Source: a plasmid
Direction: 5' to 3' (one strand)
Assembly: GCF_988243305.1 (NCBI RefSeq)
Contig: NZ_OZ547137.1
Length of the DNA stretch: 64,000 bases
The notes below the pieces were generated by a model. That model ran no database searches. It was not told the origin of the DNA and saw only the letters and a program-made list of their open reading frames with translations. Position 1 is the stretch's first letter. Every line of letters starts with the position of its first letter. Positions 2,999 to 31,380 of the stretch are shown here, one piece after another. Made by a program: the position numbers and the translations under genes.

Positions 2999-3440
2999 GT
3001 GTGTTGACGTTGACCAGGAAGGTGGTCGGTGTGGCCACCGGGATATTCGGGAAGAAGGTCTGCATCACGTCCGGTGGCACCGGTAATGCTTCCGGAAAGG
3101 CGGTATCACCCTGACCATCCAGGGTGTAGGGAAAAACAGAAAAGCCGTACTGCTGTGCCAGCTGTTTCAGTACCGGGTCAAACTGGTGACAGTAAGGGCA
3201 ATGCCCCTGCATAAACAGCACCACCTTCCAGTCGGCCAGGTTAACCTGCCTGCCGTTGCTGAGGCGGAACCAGCGGGGAGCCGGCTTTTCTGTTCTGGCT
3301 GATGTGTCTGCTGCCGGTTGTGCAGGCTGCACGGCCATACCCTGCGGATTCCAGAGTCGTTCAATTTCATCCCGGGTGGAGGTCTGCACACCTGTGGCCA
3401 TCATCAACAAAATGACCGGCAGTAATTTAGTGAGAGACAT
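2895..3440 (-). CDS. trbB: TrbB, periplasmic thioredoxin-fold disulfide isomerase
   Basis: 181-aa ORF with signal peptide and a CPYC motif (GHCPYCHQF); synteny. Confidence 0.8.
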   Translation of the reverse strand: MSLTKLLPVILLMMATGVQTSTRDEIERLWNPQGMAVQPAQPAADTSARTEKPAPRWFRLSNGRQVNLADWKVVLFMQGHCPYCHQFDPVLKQLAQQYGFSVFPYTLDGQGDTAFPEALPVPPDVMQTFFPNIPVATPTTFLVNVNTLEALPLLQGATDAASFMARMDTVLQIYGEEKGAK

Positions 3441-3711
3441 GTCCGCCCTCCTGCTGCCCTTCCATCATGGCCTGTTGCCTGGCTTCCAGTGCCTCACGCT
3501 CTTCCAGGCTGACACGTGCAATCCATGCATCCAGCAACTGGTATGCGCCGAACAGCACAAGGATGGCCGCAATCAACTCCGCCAGAAAAAAAGCCATCCA
3601 GGGTTTGCTGTAAACAAGACGGGCGACGATATGAAACCAGACACCCAGAGAAAATACCCACATTCCCGTAATATCAAGCCGGGGTAAAGAGAATCTGCAT
3701 TTACTTATCAT
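3427..3711 (-). CDS. traQ: TraQ, pilin chaperone
   Basis: 94-aa membrane protein; size and position match F TraQ. Confidence 0.7.
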   Translation of the reverse strand: MISKCRFSLPRLDITGMWVFSLGVWFHIVARLVYSKPWMAFFLAELIAAILVLFGAYQLLDAWIARVSLEEREALEARQQAMMEGQQEGGHVSH

Positions 3712-3837
3712 GTTAAACTCCGGTTATTATTTACATGAGAATATTCATGTCTGTAATATTCGCGTTTGTGTGATATTAATCAGATCAACCTCATTATTTT
3801 GTATGGTTTTTATTACCGTTTTATATGACTTAGCCTG

Positions 3838-4176
3838 TCATAAGCCCCTTATAAAAAACCACATCACTCCGGACCATGCTGATGACAACATAATACAGAT
3901 AAATATTCTTCTGAACCTGTCGAAGCTCGTAACGTTCGGTAATGAGCCAATAACCATTGGAACAACCATTGCTGCGCCCTGATTCATAATTGCACCACAC
4001 AGAAACCAGAGACTGGCGGTAAGCACATATAAACACGCGATATTAATAACAAGGAAAACCAGTGAGCTCAGGAGAAACATTTTCCTGTCATTACGCTCAG
4101 AAAAGAAATAACCGGCAATAATGACAAATATTAACAGAACAACACCTGTAAACATTTTCAAATAATCTTCACTCAT
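3838..4176 (-). CDS. trbA: TrbA-like inner-membrane protein
   Basis: 112-aa multi-TM ORF between traF and traQ. Confidence 0.5.
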   Translation of the reverse strand: MSEDYLKMFTGVVLLIFVIIAGYFFSERNDRKMFLLSSLVFLVINIACLYVLTASLWFLCGAIMNQGAAMVVPMVIGSLPNVTSFDRFRRIFICIMLSSAWSGVMWFFIRGL

Positions 4177-18531: not shown

Positions 18532-19281
18532 TTAACGCGTATTTATGATACACATAGCCTTCTCGTATAAATAATGAATAAACTTTTTATTGTAGAGTAA
18601 GATGATTAACTCATCTTTATTAGAAACAGAGAAGTAGTCGCATATCAGAGATGCGTGTTTCTTTGATGTGGAGATGGATATGTTTAATATTCTTGCTATA
18701 GCATTATGACTGATTCCGGTGCTATATAAGTAAAATACATCATTTACATATGATGATACAGAAGAATCATCACTCATTCTTCTGATTATATTTCTGATAT
18801 CATCACTGACAATCGTTTTTTGATTATAACTGTCTTTATGACGAACATGAGCAGCATCATAAAATTGCCACAGAATAATATTTCTGTGTCCATTAAGAAA
18901 TGACTGGACAGATATTGTCCAGAATCTGTTCTGAATAAAAACATCCTCTACAAGATTAAGATGCGTATGCTCATTCCTGTATGCTTCCATCTCTGTGACA
19001 GAGATCAATTCATAAAAATCTCTCTGCGACAGAAGCCATTTTTCAGCACTTTGATCTTGTGTAAGAAATGACTCATGAAACAGCGTATTGCAAAAAATAA
19101 ATTTTCCAGTTTCGTCCCTGATACAGGCTGGATTTGGATAATCCTGAATAACTGCCGTCAGATTTTCCAGCAGATCTATTTGACGAGCATGTTTTTGTTG
19201 AATACGATCCATCGGATACATAGGAACCTCCTCACAAAGGATTCTATGGACAGTCGATGCGGGGAGGAGAACTCCCTGCAT
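18532..19281 (-). CDS. traJ: TraJ, tra operon transcriptional activator
   Basis: Low-GC ORF between traM and traY; likely start at MYPMDRIQQK. Confidence 0.7.
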   Translation of the reverse strand: MQGVLLPASTVHRILCEEVPMYPMDRIQQKHARQIDLLENLTAVIQDYPNPACIRDETGKFIFCNTLFHESFLTQDQSAEKWLLSQRDFYELISVTEMEAYRNEHTHLNLVEDVFIQNRFWTISVQSFLNGHRNIILWQFYDAAHVRHKDSYNQKTIVSDDIRNIIRRMSDDSSVSSYVNDVFYLYSTGISHNAIARILNISISTSKKHASLICDYFSVSNKDELIILLYNKKFIHYLYEKAMCIINTR

Positions 19282-19405
19282 CGGCGATTTTCAAATTCAA
19301 ATTTTAACGTGGCATTAACCACGTAATTAATATACTAATTATCTTTCGTACTGTCACCTTTTTAAATCATAAAAACTCTGATATTTGAACGAAGTCAAAT
19401 TTCTT

Positions 19406-19789
19406 TTATTCATCATCATTTTTTGGAAAAAATCGTTCCATCTCAGATGATACCTTCTCCCTGATATCTTCAACCATATTGGCATATTCAAACTTTGGAT
19501 TTCCGGAGACATGAGGACTGAGAGACTCAATACCCAAAATTTTCGCTACTGATGATTGTGTTTTTACAACGCATTCAAGAAGCAATTTATTAAACTCAGT
19601 CTGATTAAATGCAGACTCTTTACGCTCCATCTGAGCCTCATATACACGAAGCCCCAGTTCAAGAAGCATTGAAGCTGTTGCTGAAAAACTGACATCTTTT
19701 TCCCTTGCCCCTTCCTGTCGACGCTTCTCAATAATCGAATTTATTTTTTCATAGGCATCATTGCTGATATACAGGTTCACCTTAGCCAT
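19406..19789 (-). CDS. traM: TraM, relaxosome accessory protein
   Basis: 127-aa ORF adjacent to oriT; MAKVNLYISNDAYEKINSIIEKRRQEGA N-terminus. Confidence 0.85.
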   Translation of the reverse strand: MAKVNLYISNDAYEKINSIIEKRRQEGAREKDVSFSATASMLLELGLRVYEAQMERKESAFNQTEFNKLLLECVVKTQSSVAKILGIESLSPHVSGNPKFEYANMVEDIREKVSSEMERFFPKNDDE

Positions 19790-19799
19790 TAGAGATTAC

Positions 19800-20150
19800 C
19801 TTTTTTGAACATAAAATAAAGTTAATTTCGGAACACTAAAATTCATAATACAAACAGGGACGCACCGCTAGCAGCGCCCCTAGCGGTATCCTATAAAAAA
19901 ACACACCGCGCCGCTAGCAGCGCCCCTAATATAAAATGATGTTTTTTATAAAAATAGTCAGTACCACCCCTACAAAGCGGTGTCGGCGCGTTGTTGTAGC
20001 CGCGCCGACACCGCTTTTTTAAATATCATAAAGAGAGTAAGAGAAACTAATTTTTCATAACACTCTATTTATAAAGAAAAATCAGCAAAAACTTGTTTTT
20101 GCGTAGTGTGTGGTGCTTTTGGTGGTGAGAACCACCAACCTGTTGAGCCT
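19800..20150. promoter_or_regulatory. oriT: oriT, F-type origin of transfer with nic motif and TraM/TraY/IHF-type repeats
   Basis: GTGTGT/GGTGCTTTTGGTGGTGAGAACCACCAACC at 20106-20140 matches the F nic region as recalled (nic about 20111^20112); two copies of GCTAGCAGCGCCCCTAG (19867, 19912); inverted repeat GGTGTCGGCGCG...CGCGCCGACACC (19977-20015). Confidence 0.75.
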
Positions 20151-20201: not shown

Positions 20202-20712
20202 AATGAAAAAATGGATGTTAGCCATCTGCCTGATGTTTATAAATGAGATCTGCCATGCCACTGATTGCTTTGATCTTGCAGGCCGGGATTACAAAATAGA
20301 TCCTGATTTACTGAGAGCAATATCATGGAAAGAATCCCGTTACCGGGTTAATGCCATCGGTATTAATCCGGTAACGGGATATGGCAGCGGACTGATGCAG
20401 GTAGATTCCCAGCATTTTAACGAACTGGCCCGCTATGGAATTAAGCCGGAACATCTGACAACAGATCCCTGCATGAACATTTATACCGGTGCTTATTATC
20501 TGGCAATAGCCTTTAAAAAATGGGGCGTCTCCTGGGAGGCCGTTGGTGCATACAATGCCGGATTCAGGAAGACCGAACGCCAGAACCAGAGACGTCTTGC
20601 CTACGCATCAGAGGTTTACCGGATTTATACCAGGATAAAAAGCAGTAAAGGTATCCGGATTCCGGTCACGAAGAAATCACTTCCAGAAATTAACAGCGTG
20701 CAGAACAATTAA
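20202..20712 (+). CDS. GeneX/orf169-type lytic transglycosylase
   Basis: 170-aa ORF from [12 protein letters not shown] with signal peptide; first gene after oriT as in F. Confidence 0.8.
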
Positions 20713-20959
20713 TCTTACAGACATTGTCAGATACCGGTTATGCCGCAAAAGCGGCATGAAGGCTACACACAAAAATATCATATGAGTGACAATGCTGACT
20801 GGCCGAAGCCCCGCGAAGCGGGAACCCATCTTATATATACCCGGTAACTGCGCAGCCTCCTGCCAGACCATTTTTCGCGGGCACAATATTTACAGACAAC
20901 CGGAAAGCCGGTTGATGGAATTGAGGTATATCAGACGACACAGCGATGCCGAAGAATGA

Positions 20960-21003
20960 TAATATAAGTAAAGCCCCGAAAAATTTTCGGGGCTTTACTT
21001 ATA
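20960..21003. terminator. Bidirectional intrinsic terminator (long perfect palindrome)
   Basis: AATGATAATATAAGTAAAGCCCCGAAAA / TTTTCGGGGCTTTACTTATATTATCAT between convergent genes. Confidence 0.5.
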
Positions 21004-21006
21004 TTA

Positions 21007-21909
21007 TCATGACTTCCACTTTCTGAACTGTTCGGCAATCACCCATAACGCCTTGTTGATTCTTATATCACCATCAATACCTGTAATGGCTCTTGTCCTG
21101 GTATTTTTCCCGGAGGCACTTCGCCCCGATAATCCACCTTTTATCATATTCTCCTGAACCCGCTGCCAGGTTGTCCAGAGATCGTTCTGTTTATCTTCCC
21201 GACGACGGGGAGTAATTATTTGTTCAGGCGTCACTGGCGTTTTATTTTCATCTTCATACCTGACCATCAGTGCAGCTCTGCCAAATAAATGTTGCTCGTC
21301 ACTGTTAAGATGAATTTCTTTCATCGCCTCCATATTATCAGTGACCTTATCAAAGACACCGAGCACTTCATACGCTCCCTCGATAACCTGCCCGACAATA
21401 TCACCTTTATGTGGAACACGGATTTCGCCAAAATTATTTCCGCACACCAGGCCATTTGTGCAGACAAAACGAAAAATTCCGGGGATCATCTGATAACTGG
21501 ATGAACCATCATGTGAATTAAGCAGGATAATTTCAGGAACTTCCTGCCCGTTAATATGCCCTTCCCTGCGAAGGCGTAACATATGTTTACTGTATTCGCG
21601 GCGTCCCAAATCACGAACCCGACTCTGACAGGCAAAGAATGGCTGGAAACCTTCATCACGTAACTTATTGATGATATTGATTGTTGGAATATACGTATAA
21701 CGTTCACTCCGGGACTCATGTTTATCACCGGAAAATACCGAAGGCACGAACTGCATTAATTCATCATCCGTTAAAGGACGTTCACGACGGATGGAATTAT
21801 ACCGACCAAAACGGGAAGCTAATCGCATAACAGCTACTCCTTTATGAAAGGATAAATTTAATAAAAAATTTTTCCGCTTAATATCATCCCTCCCGATCTC
21901 CATTAACAA
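21007..21909 (-). CDS. Conserved leading-region protein of unknown function (about 300 aa)
   Basis: 300-aa ORF downstream (minus sense) of the first Frpo-like repeat; family not confidently recognised. Confidence 0.5.
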   Translation of the reverse strand: MLMEIGRDDIKRKNFLLNLSFHKGVAVMRLASRFGRYNSIRRERPLTDDELMQFVPSVFSGDKHESRSERYTYIPTINIINKLRDEGFQPFFACQSRVRDLGRREYSKHMLRLRREGHINGQEVPEIILLNSHDGSSSYQMIPGIFRFVCTNGLVCGNNFGEIRVPHKGDIVGQVIEGAYEVLGVFDKVTDNMEAMKEIHLNSDEQHLFGRAALMVRYEDENKTPVTPEQIITPRRREDKQNDLWTTWQRVQENMIKGGLSGRSASGKNTRTRAITGIDGDIRINKALWVIAEQFRKWKS

Positions 21910-22187
21910 GATTGCAACAATCAGGAGGGATATTCATCACATCCGGTCAGCAGATCGCCCGGATATCGAGGCCGGCACGCTTAATCTGACGCAGGAACTG
22001 TTTGAAGTGATCGGCTTCCGCAATGTTGATATGGCGGAACTGCGTATCCACACCCCGGCTGAGCGCGTAGCTATAGCTGAAGGCCATCTTTTCCGGTGTT
22101 TTTTTCCCTCCCGGCAACAAGAATCGTGTACGACGCGGTGTTAACGTGGATATTTCGGGTACTCATCCAGCTTTCTCCTCTCTCTGG

Positions 22188-22720
22188 TTTTCAGCCCCCA
22201 TCATCTGTTGAGTTTCGGGAGCCGCGGTTTTGACGTTTTGCGGGGACCTGCTCTTTGTTCCCTCCGGTATTCACCATCACCTGTTTGAGAACCTTCGCCG
22301 CAAGGGGCATCACTGCCACGGCCTGACGCACCTGTCCTGGGCAGAACGCAAAATTTTTTACCGGGTTTTGGGTAAAAAATTTTGTGGGCTGTTCATTTAC
22401 CCTGGACAGTCAGTGCGGCAGGTTGTGGCTGTATCAGCCCCCGGCGACAGGGGCTTAAACAGGTGAATGGCACCGGACACAACAACGGGCAGGGACCCGC
22501 CGCAACGACGTGAAGCGCGGTTTGCGAAACGGCGTTGCGCCTTACATCCCGGCGGCCTTTTGCCGGGATGCAGGGAGCGCAGGCCACGGCGCGACAGAGG
22601 CGGCGCGACCGGAACGGTCGCTGCAAGCCCGGGGTTTCGCGTCAGGGATGGAAGCCCGCCAGGGGGACGCCCGGAAAAGACACTGCCAGGAGAACAACAA
22701 AACAGACAATAATCAGGGCA
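22188..22720. repeat. Frpo/ssi-like single-strand promoter repeat, copy 1
   Basis: Starts CAGCCCCCATCATCTGTTGAGTTTCGGGAGCCGCGGTTTTGACGTTTTGCGGGGACC; near-identical to copies at 27508 and 30850. Confidence 0.6.
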
Positions 22721-27507: not shown

Positions 27508-27962
27508 TGTTTTCAGCCCCCATCATCTGTTGAGTTTCGGGAGCCGCGGTTTTGACGTTTTGCGGGGACCTGCCTTTTGTTCCCTCCGGTATTCACCATC
27601 ACCTGTTTGAGAACCTTCGCCGCAAGGGGCATCACTGCCACGGCCTGACGCACCTGTCCTGGGCAGAACGCAAAATTTTTTACCGGGTTTTGGGTAAAAA
27701 ATTTTGTGGGCTGTTCATTTACCCTGGACAGTCAGTGCGGCAGGTTGTGGCTGTATCAGCCCCCGGCGACAGGGGCTTAAACAGGTGAATGGAACCGGAC
27801 ACAACAACGGGCAGGGACCCGCCGCAACGACGTGAAGCGCGGTTTGCGAAACGGCGTTGCGCCTTACATCCCGGCGTCTTTTTGCCGGGATGCCGGGAGC
27901 GCAGGCCACGGCGCGACAGAGGCGGCGCGACCGGAACGGTCGCTGCAAGCCCGGGGTTTTCA
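27508..27962. repeat. Frpo/ssi-like single-strand promoter repeat, copy 2 (upstream of ssb)
   Basis: About 450 bp matching copies 1 and 3 up to the GGGGCTTAAACAGGTGAATGG...CGCTGCAAGCC block. Confidence 0.6.
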
Positions 27963-30849: not shown

Positions 30850-31380
30850 ATCACCCGTTGAGTTTCGGGAGCCGCGGTTTTGACGTTTCGCGGGAACCTG
30901 CTGCTGTATTCCCTGTGGTATGAACTTCACCCGTTTGAGAACCTTCGCCGCAAGGGGCATCACTGCCACGGCCTGACGCACCTGTCCTGGGCAGAACGCA
31001 AAATTTTTTACCGGTTCTTGGGTAAAAAATTTTGTGGGCTGTTCATTTACCCTGGACAGTCAGTGCGGCAGGTTGTGGCTGTCTATGCCCCCGGCGACAG
31101 GGACTCATACGGGTGTGTGGCACCCGGCAGGCAATGAGCAGGGACCCGCTGCAACGACGTGAAGCGCGGTTTGCGAAACGGCGTTGCGCCTTACATCCCG
31201 GCGTCTTTTTGCCGGGATGCCAGGAGCGCAGGCCACGGCGCGACAGAGGCGACGCGACCGGAACGATCGCTGCAAGCCAGGGTTTCGCGTCAGGGATGGA
31301 AGCCCGCCAGGGCGGAGACAGCTTCGCTGGCTCCGTTCACGACAGCCCGCCCCGCCAGGGGGACGCCCGGGAAAGCCATA
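30850..31380. repeat. Frpo/ssi-like single-strand promoter repeat, copy 3
   Basis: Same core as copies 1 and 2; ends in a purine-rich GAAGAG tract (31385-31430). Confidence 0.6.

What the first reader, a model, noticed from the sequence alone, without database searches (positions are those of the whole stretch)
20960..21003. Perfect palindrome with 27-bp arms between convergent leading-region genes
A long perfect inverted repeat with a GC-rich core sits between geneX and the 300-aa gene. It probably acts as a bidirectional terminator but is long enough to be a protein-binding or recombination site.
Basis: seen in the sequence. Interest (0 to 1): 0.2.

Follow-up and report, generated by a model that had tools for sequence, protein, structure and literature searches.

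The report
Long hairpin terminator in IncF plasmids
A perfect 55-base palindrome sits between two convergent genes next to the transfer origin of an F-type plasmid; it is most likely an unusually long two-way transcription terminator whose base pairing evolution has kept intact, which makes it ordinary in kind and unusual only in length.

Summary
The palindrome is real. Its arms are 20956-20982 and 20984-21010, 27 nt each and 100% complementary, around a single central base. It is the longest inverted repeat in the 64-kb window and the only perfect one of 20 nt or more.

The window is an IncF plasmid. The palindrome lies about 845 nt from the oriT nick. It sits between geneX/ygfA (SLT transglycosylase, + strand) and a 273-aa DUF932 gene (- strand), and the DUF932 stop codon lies inside the right arm.

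The core, AAAGCCCCG-loop-CGGGGCTTT followed by a U-rich tail on both strands, has the design of a generic bidirectional intrinsic terminator.

Across about 4,500 plasmids and 74 sampled loci:
- The stem is conserved while the central A/T loop is hypervariable.
- Four base pairs show compensatory double changes.
- All five one-sided changes give G·U in the DUF932-sense RNA and A·C in the opposite sense.

Distant DUF932 genes and Klebsiella IncFII-type plasmids carry ordinary 8-14-bp hairpins at the same position.

Best reading: this is the terminator and 3'-end hairpin of the Frpo1-driven DUF932 operon, and it also serves geneX. A protein-binding site, a recombination site and an ssDNA promoter are not supported. 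Low novelty; no transcript data were available.

The parts
20956..20982 (.). Left arm of the perfect palindrome (ATGATAATATAAGTAAAGCCCCGAAAA). In the DUF932-sense (- strand) RNA this DNA encodes the 3' half of the stem and its U-rich tail.
   Evidence: 27 nt, 100% complementary; folds
20983..20983 (.). Central unpaired base. It belongs to an A/T run (20979-20987) that forms the loop and is hypervariable between plasmids, with 8 length/composition states.
20984..21010 (.). Right arm of the palindrome (TTTTCGGGGCTTTACTTATATTATCAT). It contains the DUF932 stop codon.
20970..20996 (.). Core terminator module, AAAG-CCCCG-AAAAATTTT-CGGGG-CTTT: a GC stem (20973-20978 / 20988-20993) with an A-tract upstream and a T-tract downstream on either strand. 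Predicted 3' ends are about 21000-21002 for + sense RNA and about 20966-20964 for - sense RNA. These positions are inferred.
   Evidence: terminator-like on the - strand; the same half-core in 126 unrelated terminator-like sites; a terminated RNA has a fully paired 3' end
21007..21009 (-). TGA stop codon of the DUF932 gene, inside the right arm. It is followed in frame by TAA.
21007..21828 (-). DUF932 (PF06067) gene, 273 aa, last gene of the oriT-proximal leading-region operon. Equating it with F ygeA/ygeB is my inference from gene order.
   Evidence: Couturier 2023 PMC9849209
21947..22234 (-). 95-aa hypothetical gene, upstream partner of DUF932 in the same transcription unit.
22212..22530 (+). 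Frpo1-type single-stranded-DNA promoter hairpin on the transferred (+) strand. It is the presumed start of the transcript that ends at the palindrome.
   Evidence: DNA fold -106.8 kcal/mol, z -10.7; tip repeat 22342-22391; PMC9849209
20110..20712 (+). geneX / orf169 / ygfA, an SLT lytic transglycosylase (169-aa form from the ATG at 20204). It converges on the palindrome with a 244-nt 3' untranslated stretch that contains no terminator-like site of its own.
20103..20120 (+). oriT nick region, GTAGTGTGT|GGTGCTTTT (R100-type). It shows that the + strand is the transferred strand and that the palindrome enters the recipient about 845 nt behind the 5' end.
   Evidence: The position of the nick within the motif is from my knowledge of F/R100 oriT.

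Best explanation
The palindrome encodes a Rho-independent, two-way transcription terminator and 3'-end hairpin.

Mechanism in the - sense. RNA polymerase starts at the Frpo1-type promoter and transcribes the 95-aa gene and the DUF932 gene. Immediately after the stop codon it makes the hairpin GCCCCGAAAA-U-UUUUCGGGGC followed by UUUACUUAU, and terminates about 7-9 nt into that tail. The released RNA can then zip up with the upstream A-rich arm, so its 3' end is fully base-paired and protected from 3' exonucleases.

Because the element is a perfect palindrome, geneX transcripts arriving from the other side meet the same signal. The element therefore also insulates oriT/tra and the leading operon from antisense read-through.

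Shown here:
- the structure and its position;
- population-wide conservation of the stem;
- compensatory and wobble-only substitutions, with a polarity pointing to the DUF932-sense RNA.

Inferred:
- actual termination;
- the 3'-end positions;
- the stabilising role of the outer 12-14 bp.

The exceptional perfection is probably helped by templated (template-switch) correction between the arms.
For: 1. Anatomy. The structure is a 26-27-bp perfect stem with a GC core and a U-rich tail on both strands. The terminator scan flags it on the - strand. Whatever the exact termination point in the tail, the 3' end of the RNA is fully paired.

2. Generic design. The half-core AAAGCCCCG...CGGGGCTTT recurs in 126 unrelated terminator-like sites, typically flanked by A and T runs.

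3. Position. It lies between convergent genes and overlaps the DUF932 stop codon. There is no other terminator-like site between the geneX stop and the palindrome.

4. Analogues.
- Most of the 13 distant DUF932 genes examined (Serratia, Hafnia, Cedecea, Xenorhabdus, Pseudomonas, Brucella, MAGs) have an unrelated GC-rich hairpin starting roughly 10-45 nt after the stop codon.
- Klebsiella IncFII-type plasmids have an ordinary hairpin with a stem of about 10 bp, AAGCCTTCT...AGAAGGCTTTTT, in the 33-bp gap facing the SLT gene.

5. Conservation.
- About 4,520 PLSDB plasmids carry the locus.
- Against pSLT the palindrome is 50/55 identical, versus 61% for the spacer and 73% for the DUF932 3' part. 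In pSLT the DUF932 gene is a pseudogene.

6. Covariation.
- In 18 distinct versions, 99.8% of cells are paired in the DUF932 sense.
- Four pairs changed on both sides: G-C>T-A, T-A>C-G (with the U·G intermediate also observed), and two more in pSLT.
- 0 of 500 shuffles reach the observed values.
- RNAalifold independently predicts the same helix.

7. Polarity.
- The same one-sided changes are A·C mismatches in the geneX/+ sense.
- All 5 first-step transitions in the stem are wobble-forming in the DUF932 sense.
- Only about 42% of flank transitions (49 of 118) are of that type, giving p about 0.012.

8. Context. Couturier 2023 (PMC9849209) shows that the genes downstream of Frpo1 are expressed from the incoming single strand, and that ygfA is expressed only after conversion to double-stranded DNA.
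Against: No transcript 3'-end data were available, so termination is not demonstrated.

The U-tract is interrupted (UUUACUUAU), so intrinsic efficiency may be moderate.

A terminator needs only 8-15 bp of stem. Of 126 sites sharing the same half-core, the median perfect stem is 12 and the maximum 19, so the outer roughly 12 bp need another explanation.

The polarity test rests on only five substitution events, with ancestry assumed by majority rule.

Compensatory changes can also arise without selection, through template switching between the arms.

During zygotic expression the template is single-stranded DNA, and it is not established that a classical intrinsic terminator works on such a template.
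Confidence: 0.75

Rival explanations
1. The long perfect symmetry is mainly a mutational by-product. Intramolecular template switching during replication (quasipalindrome correction) copies one arm onto the other. This homogenises the arms and extends an ordinary short terminator into a 27-bp perfect palindrome, with no function for the outer part.
For: - A transversion pair, G-C>T-A in L013/L179, has no stable single-step intermediate.
- The centre is hypervariable, and some states are complements of each other, such as A5T4 versus A4T5. That pattern is expected from spacer inversion or slippage.
- The palindrome stays nearly perfect in pSLT although the adjacent DUF932 gene has decayed.
- The literature shows that template switching can create and maintain hairpins and homogenise inverted repeats (PMC8794818 and PMC5941160, listed).
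- Ordinary terminators with the same half-core never exceed 19 perfect pairs, and IncFII-type plasmids manage with about 10 bp.
Against: - Uncorrected one-sided changes persist in very common lineages. The L012 type, with three G·U pairs, is listed in 15,883 collection blocks.
- All five such changes have the polarity that preserves pairing in one RNA sense (p about 0.012). A strand-blind correction process does not predict this.
- The arms change several-fold more slowly than the neighbouring spacer in the pSLT comparison.

The two explanations are compatible: correction may supply the variants and selection may filter them.
Confidence: 0.35
2. The relevant structure is a DNA hairpin on the incoming transferred strand (+ strand), not an RNA. 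It would act in the recipient in one of three ways: as a roadblock to complementary-strand synthesis, as a priming or promoter signal, or as a device that lets RNA polymerase release its RNA on a single-stranded template.
For: - The palindrome is about 845 nt from the nick on the transferred strand.
- It folds as ssDNA at -29.2 kcal/mol, z -12.
- The DUF932 operon is transcribed from single-stranded DNA via Frpo1 (PMC9849209).
- A hairpin (ssp2) in the F leading region has been shown to stall complementary-strand synthesis (bioRxiv 10.64898/2026.01.09.698686).
- The unusual length is specific to the lineage that carries Frpo-type promoters immediately upstream.
Against: - In the common L012-type plasmids, and in the L007, L212 and L213 variants, the + strand hairpin carries A·C mismatches while the - sense RNA keeps G·U.
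- It is far smaller than ssDNA promoters: -29 versus -107 kcal/mol for the Frpo1-like hairpin here, and versus the -75 kcal/mol mining threshold used by Wen 2025.
- A 27-bp stem cannot hold a -35/-10 pair with normal spacing, and the promoter scan is at chance level, 5 sites found against 5.2 expected.
- Nothing needing expression lies downstream on that template, only antisense geneX.
- The mapped conversion delay in F is attributed to ssp2, not to this site.
Confidence: 0.12
3. The 26-bp perfect RNA duplex is an RNase III processing site. Read-through transcripts from either gene would be cleaved there, setting mRNA stability or removing antisense RNA.
For: The stem exceeds the roughly 20-22 bp of perfect dsRNA that E. 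coli RNase III needs (my knowledge). Only read-through RNA contains the complete stem. The outer stem seems to be conserved at RNA level. I recall that R1 gene 19, the geneX homologue, was reported to be controlled by RNase III (Koraimann et al. 1993), but I could not retrieve the paper.
Against: No data are available. A second long inverted repeat inside the geneX coding region (20334-20380) is an equally good or better candidate for the reported RNase III site. G·U pairs and the loop variation are tolerated in the alignment, but that says nothing specific about RNase III.
Confidence: 0.15
4. The palindrome is a binding site for a dimeric protein or a site-specific recombination site.
For: The perfect dyad symmetry over 55 bp is much longer than a terminator needs. 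One family of Salmonella Enteritidis plasmids has a deletion ending inside the right arm.
Against: - The half-site spacing is not conserved: the central A/T run is 8-11 nt.
- Substitutions follow RNA pairing rules with strand polarity.
- There is one copy per plasmid and none elsewhere in the window.
- The deletion is between imperfect 15-16-nt direct repeats, ATTTTCGG(T)GGCTTTA, lying 351 bp apart. That is slipped mispairing, not site-specific recombination.
- By eye I found no convincing match to an IHF or Xer/dif consensus.
Confidence: 0.04

Closest known systems
Bidirectional Rho-independent (intrinsic) terminators between convergent bacterial genes
   Same: It has a GC-rich hairpin with an A-tract on one side and a T-tract on the other, so both transcripts end in hairpin plus U-tail. 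It lies between convergent stop codons. The half-core AAAGCCCCG/CGGGGCTTT is identical to that of many unrelated terminator-like sites. Such elements are described as pervasive in E. coli (Ju et al. 2019, as summarised in bioRxiv 10.1101/2022.10.23.513370).
   Different: The perfect stem is 26-27 bp, against a median of 12 and a maximum of 19 in 126 sites with the same half-core. The U-tract is interrupted. The stop codon lies inside the stem. In transconjugants the two convergent transcripts are separated in time, one made from single-stranded DNA before conversion and the other after it, so a polymerase-collision mechanism is unlikely to apply.
Frpo/ssi-type single-stranded-DNA promoters of IncF/IncI leading regions (Masai & Arai 1997; Couturier 2023; Wen 2025)
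   Same: Both are hairpin-forming sequences on the transferred strand of the leading region, conserved among F-like plasmids, and part of the same transcription unit.
   Different: The ssDNA promoters are imperfect hairpins of about 300 nt. The one in this window folds at -106.8 kcal/mol. They rebuild -35/-10 boxes and sit upstream of operons. The palindrome is 55 nt, perfect, folds at -29 kcal/mol as DNA, lacks promoter geometry, and sits at the 3' end of the operon.
Quasipalindromes maintained by replication template switching
   Same: The arms are kept identical, including a transversion pair. The spacer is hypervariable or invertible. A deletion uses an arm as one of two direct repeats. 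The literature is listed.
   Different: The persisting one-sided changes are all G·U in one transcript sense, and the arms evolve more slowly than the flanks. Both indicate selection on top of any templated correction.
Short terminators downstream of DUF932 genes in other plasmids (Klebsiella IncFII-type, Serratia, Hafnia, Xenorhabdus and others)
   Same: They occupy the same position: right after the DUF932 operon and, in the Klebsiella IncFII-type plasmid, facing the convergent SLT gene next to traM/oriT.
   Different: There is no sequence homology. Their stems are 8-14 bp. The Klebsiella IncFII-type plasmid has an extra DUF5983 gene between DUF932 and the terminator.

Membership tests
Intrinsic (Rho-independent) terminator, bidirectional type | Stable GC-rich stem-loop in the nascent RNA | tested here: met
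   Folds give -44.0 and -48.2 kcal/mol, z about -11. The GC core is GCCCCG/CGGGGC, with 7 G-C pairs counted by the scan.
Intrinsic (Rho-independent) terminator, bidirectional type | U-rich tract immediately 3' of the stem, on both strands (so an A-rich tract 5' of it) | tested here: met
   The tail is TTTACTTATATTAT on both strands by symmetry, with 6 U in the first 9 nt. The scan's criterion is met on the - strand. The + strand was not flagged only because the scan extends the stem maximally before reading the tail. The tract is interrupted, so the predicted strength is moderate.
Intrinsic (Rho-independent) terminator, bidirectional type | Located downstream of the stop codons of two convergent transcription units, with no other terminator between | tested here: met
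Intrinsic (Rho-independent) terminator, bidirectional type | Base pairing conserved in evolution (covariation) | tested here: met
   Four pairs show double-sided changes, 99.8% of cells are paired and 0 of 500 shuffles reach this. RNAalifold predicts the same helix.
Intrinsic (Rho-independent) terminator, bidirectional type | Transcript 3' ends map to the U-tract and read-through is reduced | not testable with these tools
   No Term-seq or RACE data for an IncF plasmid were found in the paper library.
ssDNA promoter (Frpo / ssi class 1-3) | Large imperfect hairpin (below about -75 kcal/mol as ssDNA) that rebuilds -35 and -10 boxes, upstream of an operon | tested here: not met
   The palindrome folds at -29.2 kcal/mol, against -106.8 for the Frpo1-like hairpin in the same window. 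The threshold is from Wen 2025. The promoter scan is at chance level. The position is at the 3' end of the operon.
Repeated palindromic element (REP/MITE-like) | Many dispersed copies per replicon | tested here: not met
   There is a single copy in the window. There are about 2 places per plasmid record, which is one locus matched on both strands. None was found in viral contigs.
RNase III substrate | At least about 20-22 bp of near-perfect dsRNA | tested here: met
   There are 26 consecutive pairs. This applies only to read-through RNA.
RNase III substrate | rnc-dependent cleavage in the stem | not testable with these tools
   The literature lead (R1 gene 19) could not be retrieved.
Dimeric protein operator / site-specific recombination site | Fixed half-site spacing, and a cognate protein or recurrent recombinant junctions | tested here: not met
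   The spacing varies by 3 nt. The only junction found is a direct-repeat deletion.

The most novel reading that the evidence does not exclude
The extra-long perfect stem may be an adaptation to transcription on a single-stranded template.

The Frpo1 operon is read from the naked transferred strand, where there is no non-template strand to displace the RNA. A palindrome lets both the template DNA and the RNA fold on themselves, which would force RNA release and termination. The DNA hairpin might also briefly stall complementary-strand synthesis in front of geneX/oriT.

This would make it the first described 'ssDNA-competent terminator' of a conjugative leading region.
Probability: 0.1. Interest if true: 0.6.

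Novelty: new member of a known kind. Interest (0 to 1): 0.22.

Why it matters
If the reading is right, this element marks the 3' boundary of the first operon that an F-type plasmid expresses after entering a new cell. It also shields oriT/tra and geneX from antisense read-through. That is useful for annotating and engineering IncF plasmids, which are major carriers of resistance genes, but it is not conceptually new.

Two modest points go beyond routine. First, the stem is about twice as long as comparable terminators. Second, the stem is maintained by structure-preserving substitutions whose polarity identifies the DUF932-sense RNA as the selected molecule. This raises a testable question: how is transcription from a single-stranded template terminated?

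Tried and rejected
1. Metagenome scan with AAAGCCCCGN{7,13}CGGGGCTTT. The pattern was too generic. I reused the hits as a background set for stem length.

2. Viral-contig scan with the exact 31-mer gave no hits.

3. Rfam at a permissive E-value gave only sub-threshold generic-hairpin hits at the palindrome (mir-1302, His_leader and RsmY terminator parts). The real hits in the region were FinP, the traJ 5' UTR and sok.

4. Literature searches for the R1 gene 19 / RNase III paper and for orf169/orf273 descriptions returned nothing usable. I therefore cannot say whether older papers on the F leading-region sequence already called this dyad a terminator.

5. The 57-codon + strand ORF (20786-20959), whose stop lies in the left arm, is rejected as a gene. 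It is truncated in F and abolished in L005, L013 and pSLT.

6. Promoter in the arms (GATAAT): the scan found no more sites than in shuffles, and such a transcript would start inside the hairpin.

7. Xer/dif-like or IHF site: I found no convincing consensus match by eye, and I ran no formal test.

8. The deletion ending inside the arm in S. Enteritidis plasmids looked at first like a recombination hotspot. It turned out to be a deletion between direct repeats.

9. The L008 variant (CP022610) has an odd core, CCCG...CCGGG. Its record is linear and its DUF932 gene is unannotated. I treated it as a probable assembly error and left it out of alignments A1 and A2.

Full report
OBSERVATION

The sequence at 20956-21010 is ATGATAATATAAGTAAAGCCCCGAAAA-A-TTTTCGGGGCTTTACTTATATTATCAT. 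It has two 27-nt arms that are 100% complementary around one central base. The coordinates 20960-21003 cover only the middle of it.

Either strand folds into a 26-pair hairpin. As RNA the energies are -44.0 and -48.2 kcal/mol, z about -11. As DNA the energy is -29.2 kcal/mol, z -12. In the whole 64-kb window it is the longest inverted repeat and the only perfect one of 20 nt or more.

CONTEXT

The window is an IncF conjugative plasmid.
- Rfam finds FinP, the traJ 5' UTR and sok.
- traJ and traM lie on the - strand at 18532-19789.
- The oriT nick motif GTAGTGTGT|GGTGCTTTT (R100-type) is on the + strand at 20103-20120.

The + strand is therefore the transferred strand. The DNA to the right of the nick is the leading region, and the palindrome lies about 845 nt from the 5' end that enters the recipient.

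geneX (orf169, called ygfA in F; SLT domain) is on the + strand at 20110/20204-20712. The '300-aa gene' is a DUF932 (PF06067) gene on the - strand, annotated as 273 aa at 21007-21828 in near-identical plasmids. Its TGA stop (21007-21009) lies inside the right arm. The geneX stop lies 244 nt to the left of the palindrome, with no terminator-like site in between.

Upstream of DUF932 are a 95-aa gene (21947-22234) and a 320-nt hairpin on the + strand at 22212-22530 (DNA fold -106.8 kcal/mol, z -10.7). The tip of this hairpin is repeated three times in the window. It corresponds to the Frpo1 single-stranded-DNA promoter.

Couturier et al. 2023 (PMC9849209) report the following:
- Frpo1 lies upstream of ygeA/ygeB.
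- These genes are expressed from the incoming single strand before conversion to duplex.
- ygfA, the gene nearest oriT and in the opposite orientation, is expressed only after conversion.

So the palindrome is the 3' boundary of the oriT-proximal zygotic operon and of the convergent geneX.

IS IT TERMINATOR-LIKE?

The core, AAAG-CCCCG-loop-CGGGG-CTTT with the tail TTTACTTATATTAT, gives the same hairpin plus U-rich tail on both strands. The scan flags it on the - strand.

Nearly all of them look like classical bidirectional terminators (aaaAAAGCCCCG...CGGGGCTTTttt). The core is therefore a generic design, not something specific to this plasmid.

In that background the perfect stem has a median of 12 pairs and a maximum of 19. 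Here it is 26-27 pairs. So the kind is ordinary and the length is an outlier.

Wherever termination occurs in the tail, the released RNA has a fully paired 3' end.

COMPARATIVE EVIDENCE

Distribution. The locus is present in about 4,520 PLSDB plasmids from Escherichia, Klebsiella, Salmonella and Shigella, at one copy per plasmid.

Sampling. I sampled loci through the DUF932 protein rather than through the palindrome, to avoid ascertainment bias, and added plasmid hits. This gave 74 F-type loci, 43 distinct 890-nt haplotypes and 18 distinct versions of the element.

Findings:

1. The central A/T run is hypervariable, with eight states of 8-11 nt. The stem is conserved.

2. Four stem positions changed on both sides and kept the pair:
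- G-C>T-A in L013/L179.
- T-A>C-G in L156/L164. The U·G intermediate is observed in L007/L158/L161.
- Two pairs in pSLT.

3. In the DUF932 sense, 99.8% of pair cells are standard pairs, and 0 of 500 shuffles reach the observed values. Slid-partner controls give 42-50%. RNAalifold predicts the same 26-pair helix on its own.

4. Every one-sided change is A>G on the DUF932-sense strand. These are three in the L012 type and one each in L007, L212 and L213, amounting to five distinct column variants. Each gives G·U in that RNA but A·C in the geneX-sense RNA and in the transferred DNA strand.

5. In the flanks of the same alignment, transitions of the wobble-making type are 49 of 118. Five out of five therefore has p about 0.012. 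The caveats are that there are few events, that polarity was set by majority rule, and that recombination was not modelled.

6. Against pSLT the palindrome is 50/55 identical. The spacer is 61% identical, the geneX 3' part 62% and the DUF932 3' part 73%. In pSLT the DUF932 gene is broken into three ORFs, so the element is kept independently of the integrity of that gene.

7. Functional analogues exist.
- Most of the 13 distant DUF932 genes examined have an unrelated GC-rich hairpin starting roughly 10-45 nt after the stop codon.
- In Klebsiella IncFII-type plasmids (72% protein identity), an ordinary hairpin with a stem of about 10 bp and a T-run fills the 33-bp gap between the operon (DUF932 plus DUF5983) and the convergent SLT gene.

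MECHANISM

The best-supported reading is a two-way intrinsic terminator and 3'-end hairpin. It ends the Frpo1-95aa-DUF932 transcript right after the stop codon, and it ends geneX transcripts coming from the other side. It thereby also prevents antisense transcription into oriT/tra or into the leading operon.

The polarity of the substitutions suggests that the extended stem matters in the DUF932-sense RNA. The function could be 3'-end protection or processing of read-through RNA. For geneX the inner 15 bp, which are perfect in all variants, would suffice.

What is shown is the structure, the position, the conservation, the covariation and the polarity. What is inferred is termination, the 3'-end positions and the stabilising role of the outer stem.

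RIVALS

1. Template-switch homogenisation can make and keep palindromes perfect (literature listed). It explains the transversion pair and the flipping centre. It probably contributes. It does not explain the polarity, or why three G·U pairs persist uncorrected in a lineage seen in 15,883 collection blocks.

2. A DNA hairpin on the transferred strand could act as a roadblock or promoter. This is topical, because the ssp2 hairpin stalls complementary-strand synthesis in F. Against it:
- The element is four-fold weaker than Frpo-type hairpins.
- It lacks promoter geometry.
- It is the strand that carries the A·C mismatches in common variants.

3. RNase III processing is possible for read-through RNA but could not be tested. 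An inverted repeat inside geneX (20334-20380) may be the site I recall from the R1 gene 19 literature, which I could not retrieve.

4. A protein-binding or recombination site is not supported:
- The half-site spacing is variable.
- The substitution rules are RNA-like.
- The element is single-copy.
- The only rearrangement found is a 351-bp deletion between 15-16-nt direct repeats.

NOVELTY AND VERDICT

This is an ordinary kind of element, a bidirectional intrinsic terminator, in the best-studied plasmid family. Older papers on the F leading-region sequence may already mention the dyad, but I could not check.

The unusual features are its length and perfection, and the clear structure-preserving evolution with a strand polarity.

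The most novel reading still open is that it is adapted to terminate transcription on a single-stranded template, or to stall complementary-strand synthesis. I put that at about 10%.

Interest is low, at about 0.2.

Noticed in passing
window 20334-20380: A second long inverted repeat lies inside the geneX coding region, with 22-nt arms that are 91% complementary and a 3-nt spacer (ATCCCGTTACCGGGTTAATGCC / GGTATTAATCCGGTAACGGGAT). It may be the stem-loop through which RNase III was reported to control R1 gene 19. That link is from my memory only and the paper was not retrievable.
   Followed up: no
window 22342-22391, 27664-27713, 30992-31041: Three copies of the same 50-nt hairpin tip (CAGAACGCAAAATTTTTTACC...GGTAAAAAATTTTGTGGGCTG). 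The first is the apex of a 320-nt ssDNA hairpin at 22212-22530 (-106.8 kcal/mol), i.e. Frpo-type single-stranded promoters. This plasmid appears to have three, whereas F is described with two (Frpo1, Frpo2).
   Followed up: partly
window 19974-20017: A perfect 17-nt inverted repeat with a 10-nt spacer, followed by a T-run, in the oriT region between traM and the nick (AAAGCGGTGTCGGCGCG...CGCGCCGACACCGCTTTTTT). It also looks terminator-like.
   Followed up: no
window 20103-20120: The nick-region sequence is GTAGTGTGTGGTGCTTTT. It differs at 2 positions from the F motif I searched with, GTGGGGTGTGGTGCTTTT. From memory this is the R100/R1-type specificity variant, although the DUF932 protein and the palindrome are F-like. 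This suggests a mosaic IncF backbone.
   Followed up: no
L002 (pSLT-type, NZ_CP027413.1) 3049-3867; L001 and L014 (S. Enteritidis plasmids): In pSLT the DUF932 gene is broken into three ORFs (89, 114 and 56 aa), yet the palindrome is retained with 25-nt perfect arms. In pUO-SeVR1 and pSEN-BT, 351 bp are deleted between the right arm and an imperfect direct repeat, ATTTTCGGTGGCTTTA, inside the pseudogene. The two plasmids have crossover points at different positions.
   Followed up: yes
window 20979-20987 and the homologous positions in L003-L213: The central A/T run of the palindrome is a mutational hotspot. The + strand states A5T4, A4T5, A3T6, A4T6, A5T5, A6T5, A7T3 and A4T4 all occur among otherwise near-identical plasmids. 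This is consistent with slippage and/or loop inversion.
   Followed up: partly
window 20786-20959: A 57-codon ORF on the + strand ends at a TGA in the left arm, mirroring the DUF932 stop. It is open in many IncF plasmids but truncated in F and abolished in L005, L013 and pSLT, so it is probably not a gene.
   Followed up: yes
L210 (Klebsiella p187-2) 2655-2984: Klebsiella IncFII-type plasmids carry an extra DUF5983 gene between DUF932 and the SLT gene. A GC hairpin lies directly after the DUF932 stop, inside the operon, and may be an attenuator or processing site.
   Followed up: no
L157/L198 (CP050217.1, 6.65 Mb), L190, L206, L159, L181, L185: Exact copies of the F-type DUF932 gene with the palindrome occur in records of 4.7-6.7 Mb labelled as chromosomes, in one case twice. 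In L157 the neighbours are not F genes (DUF1064, a RecA-dependent nuclease, invasin-like). These may be integrated plasmids, mis-joined assemblies, or a fragment captured by another element.
   Followed up: no
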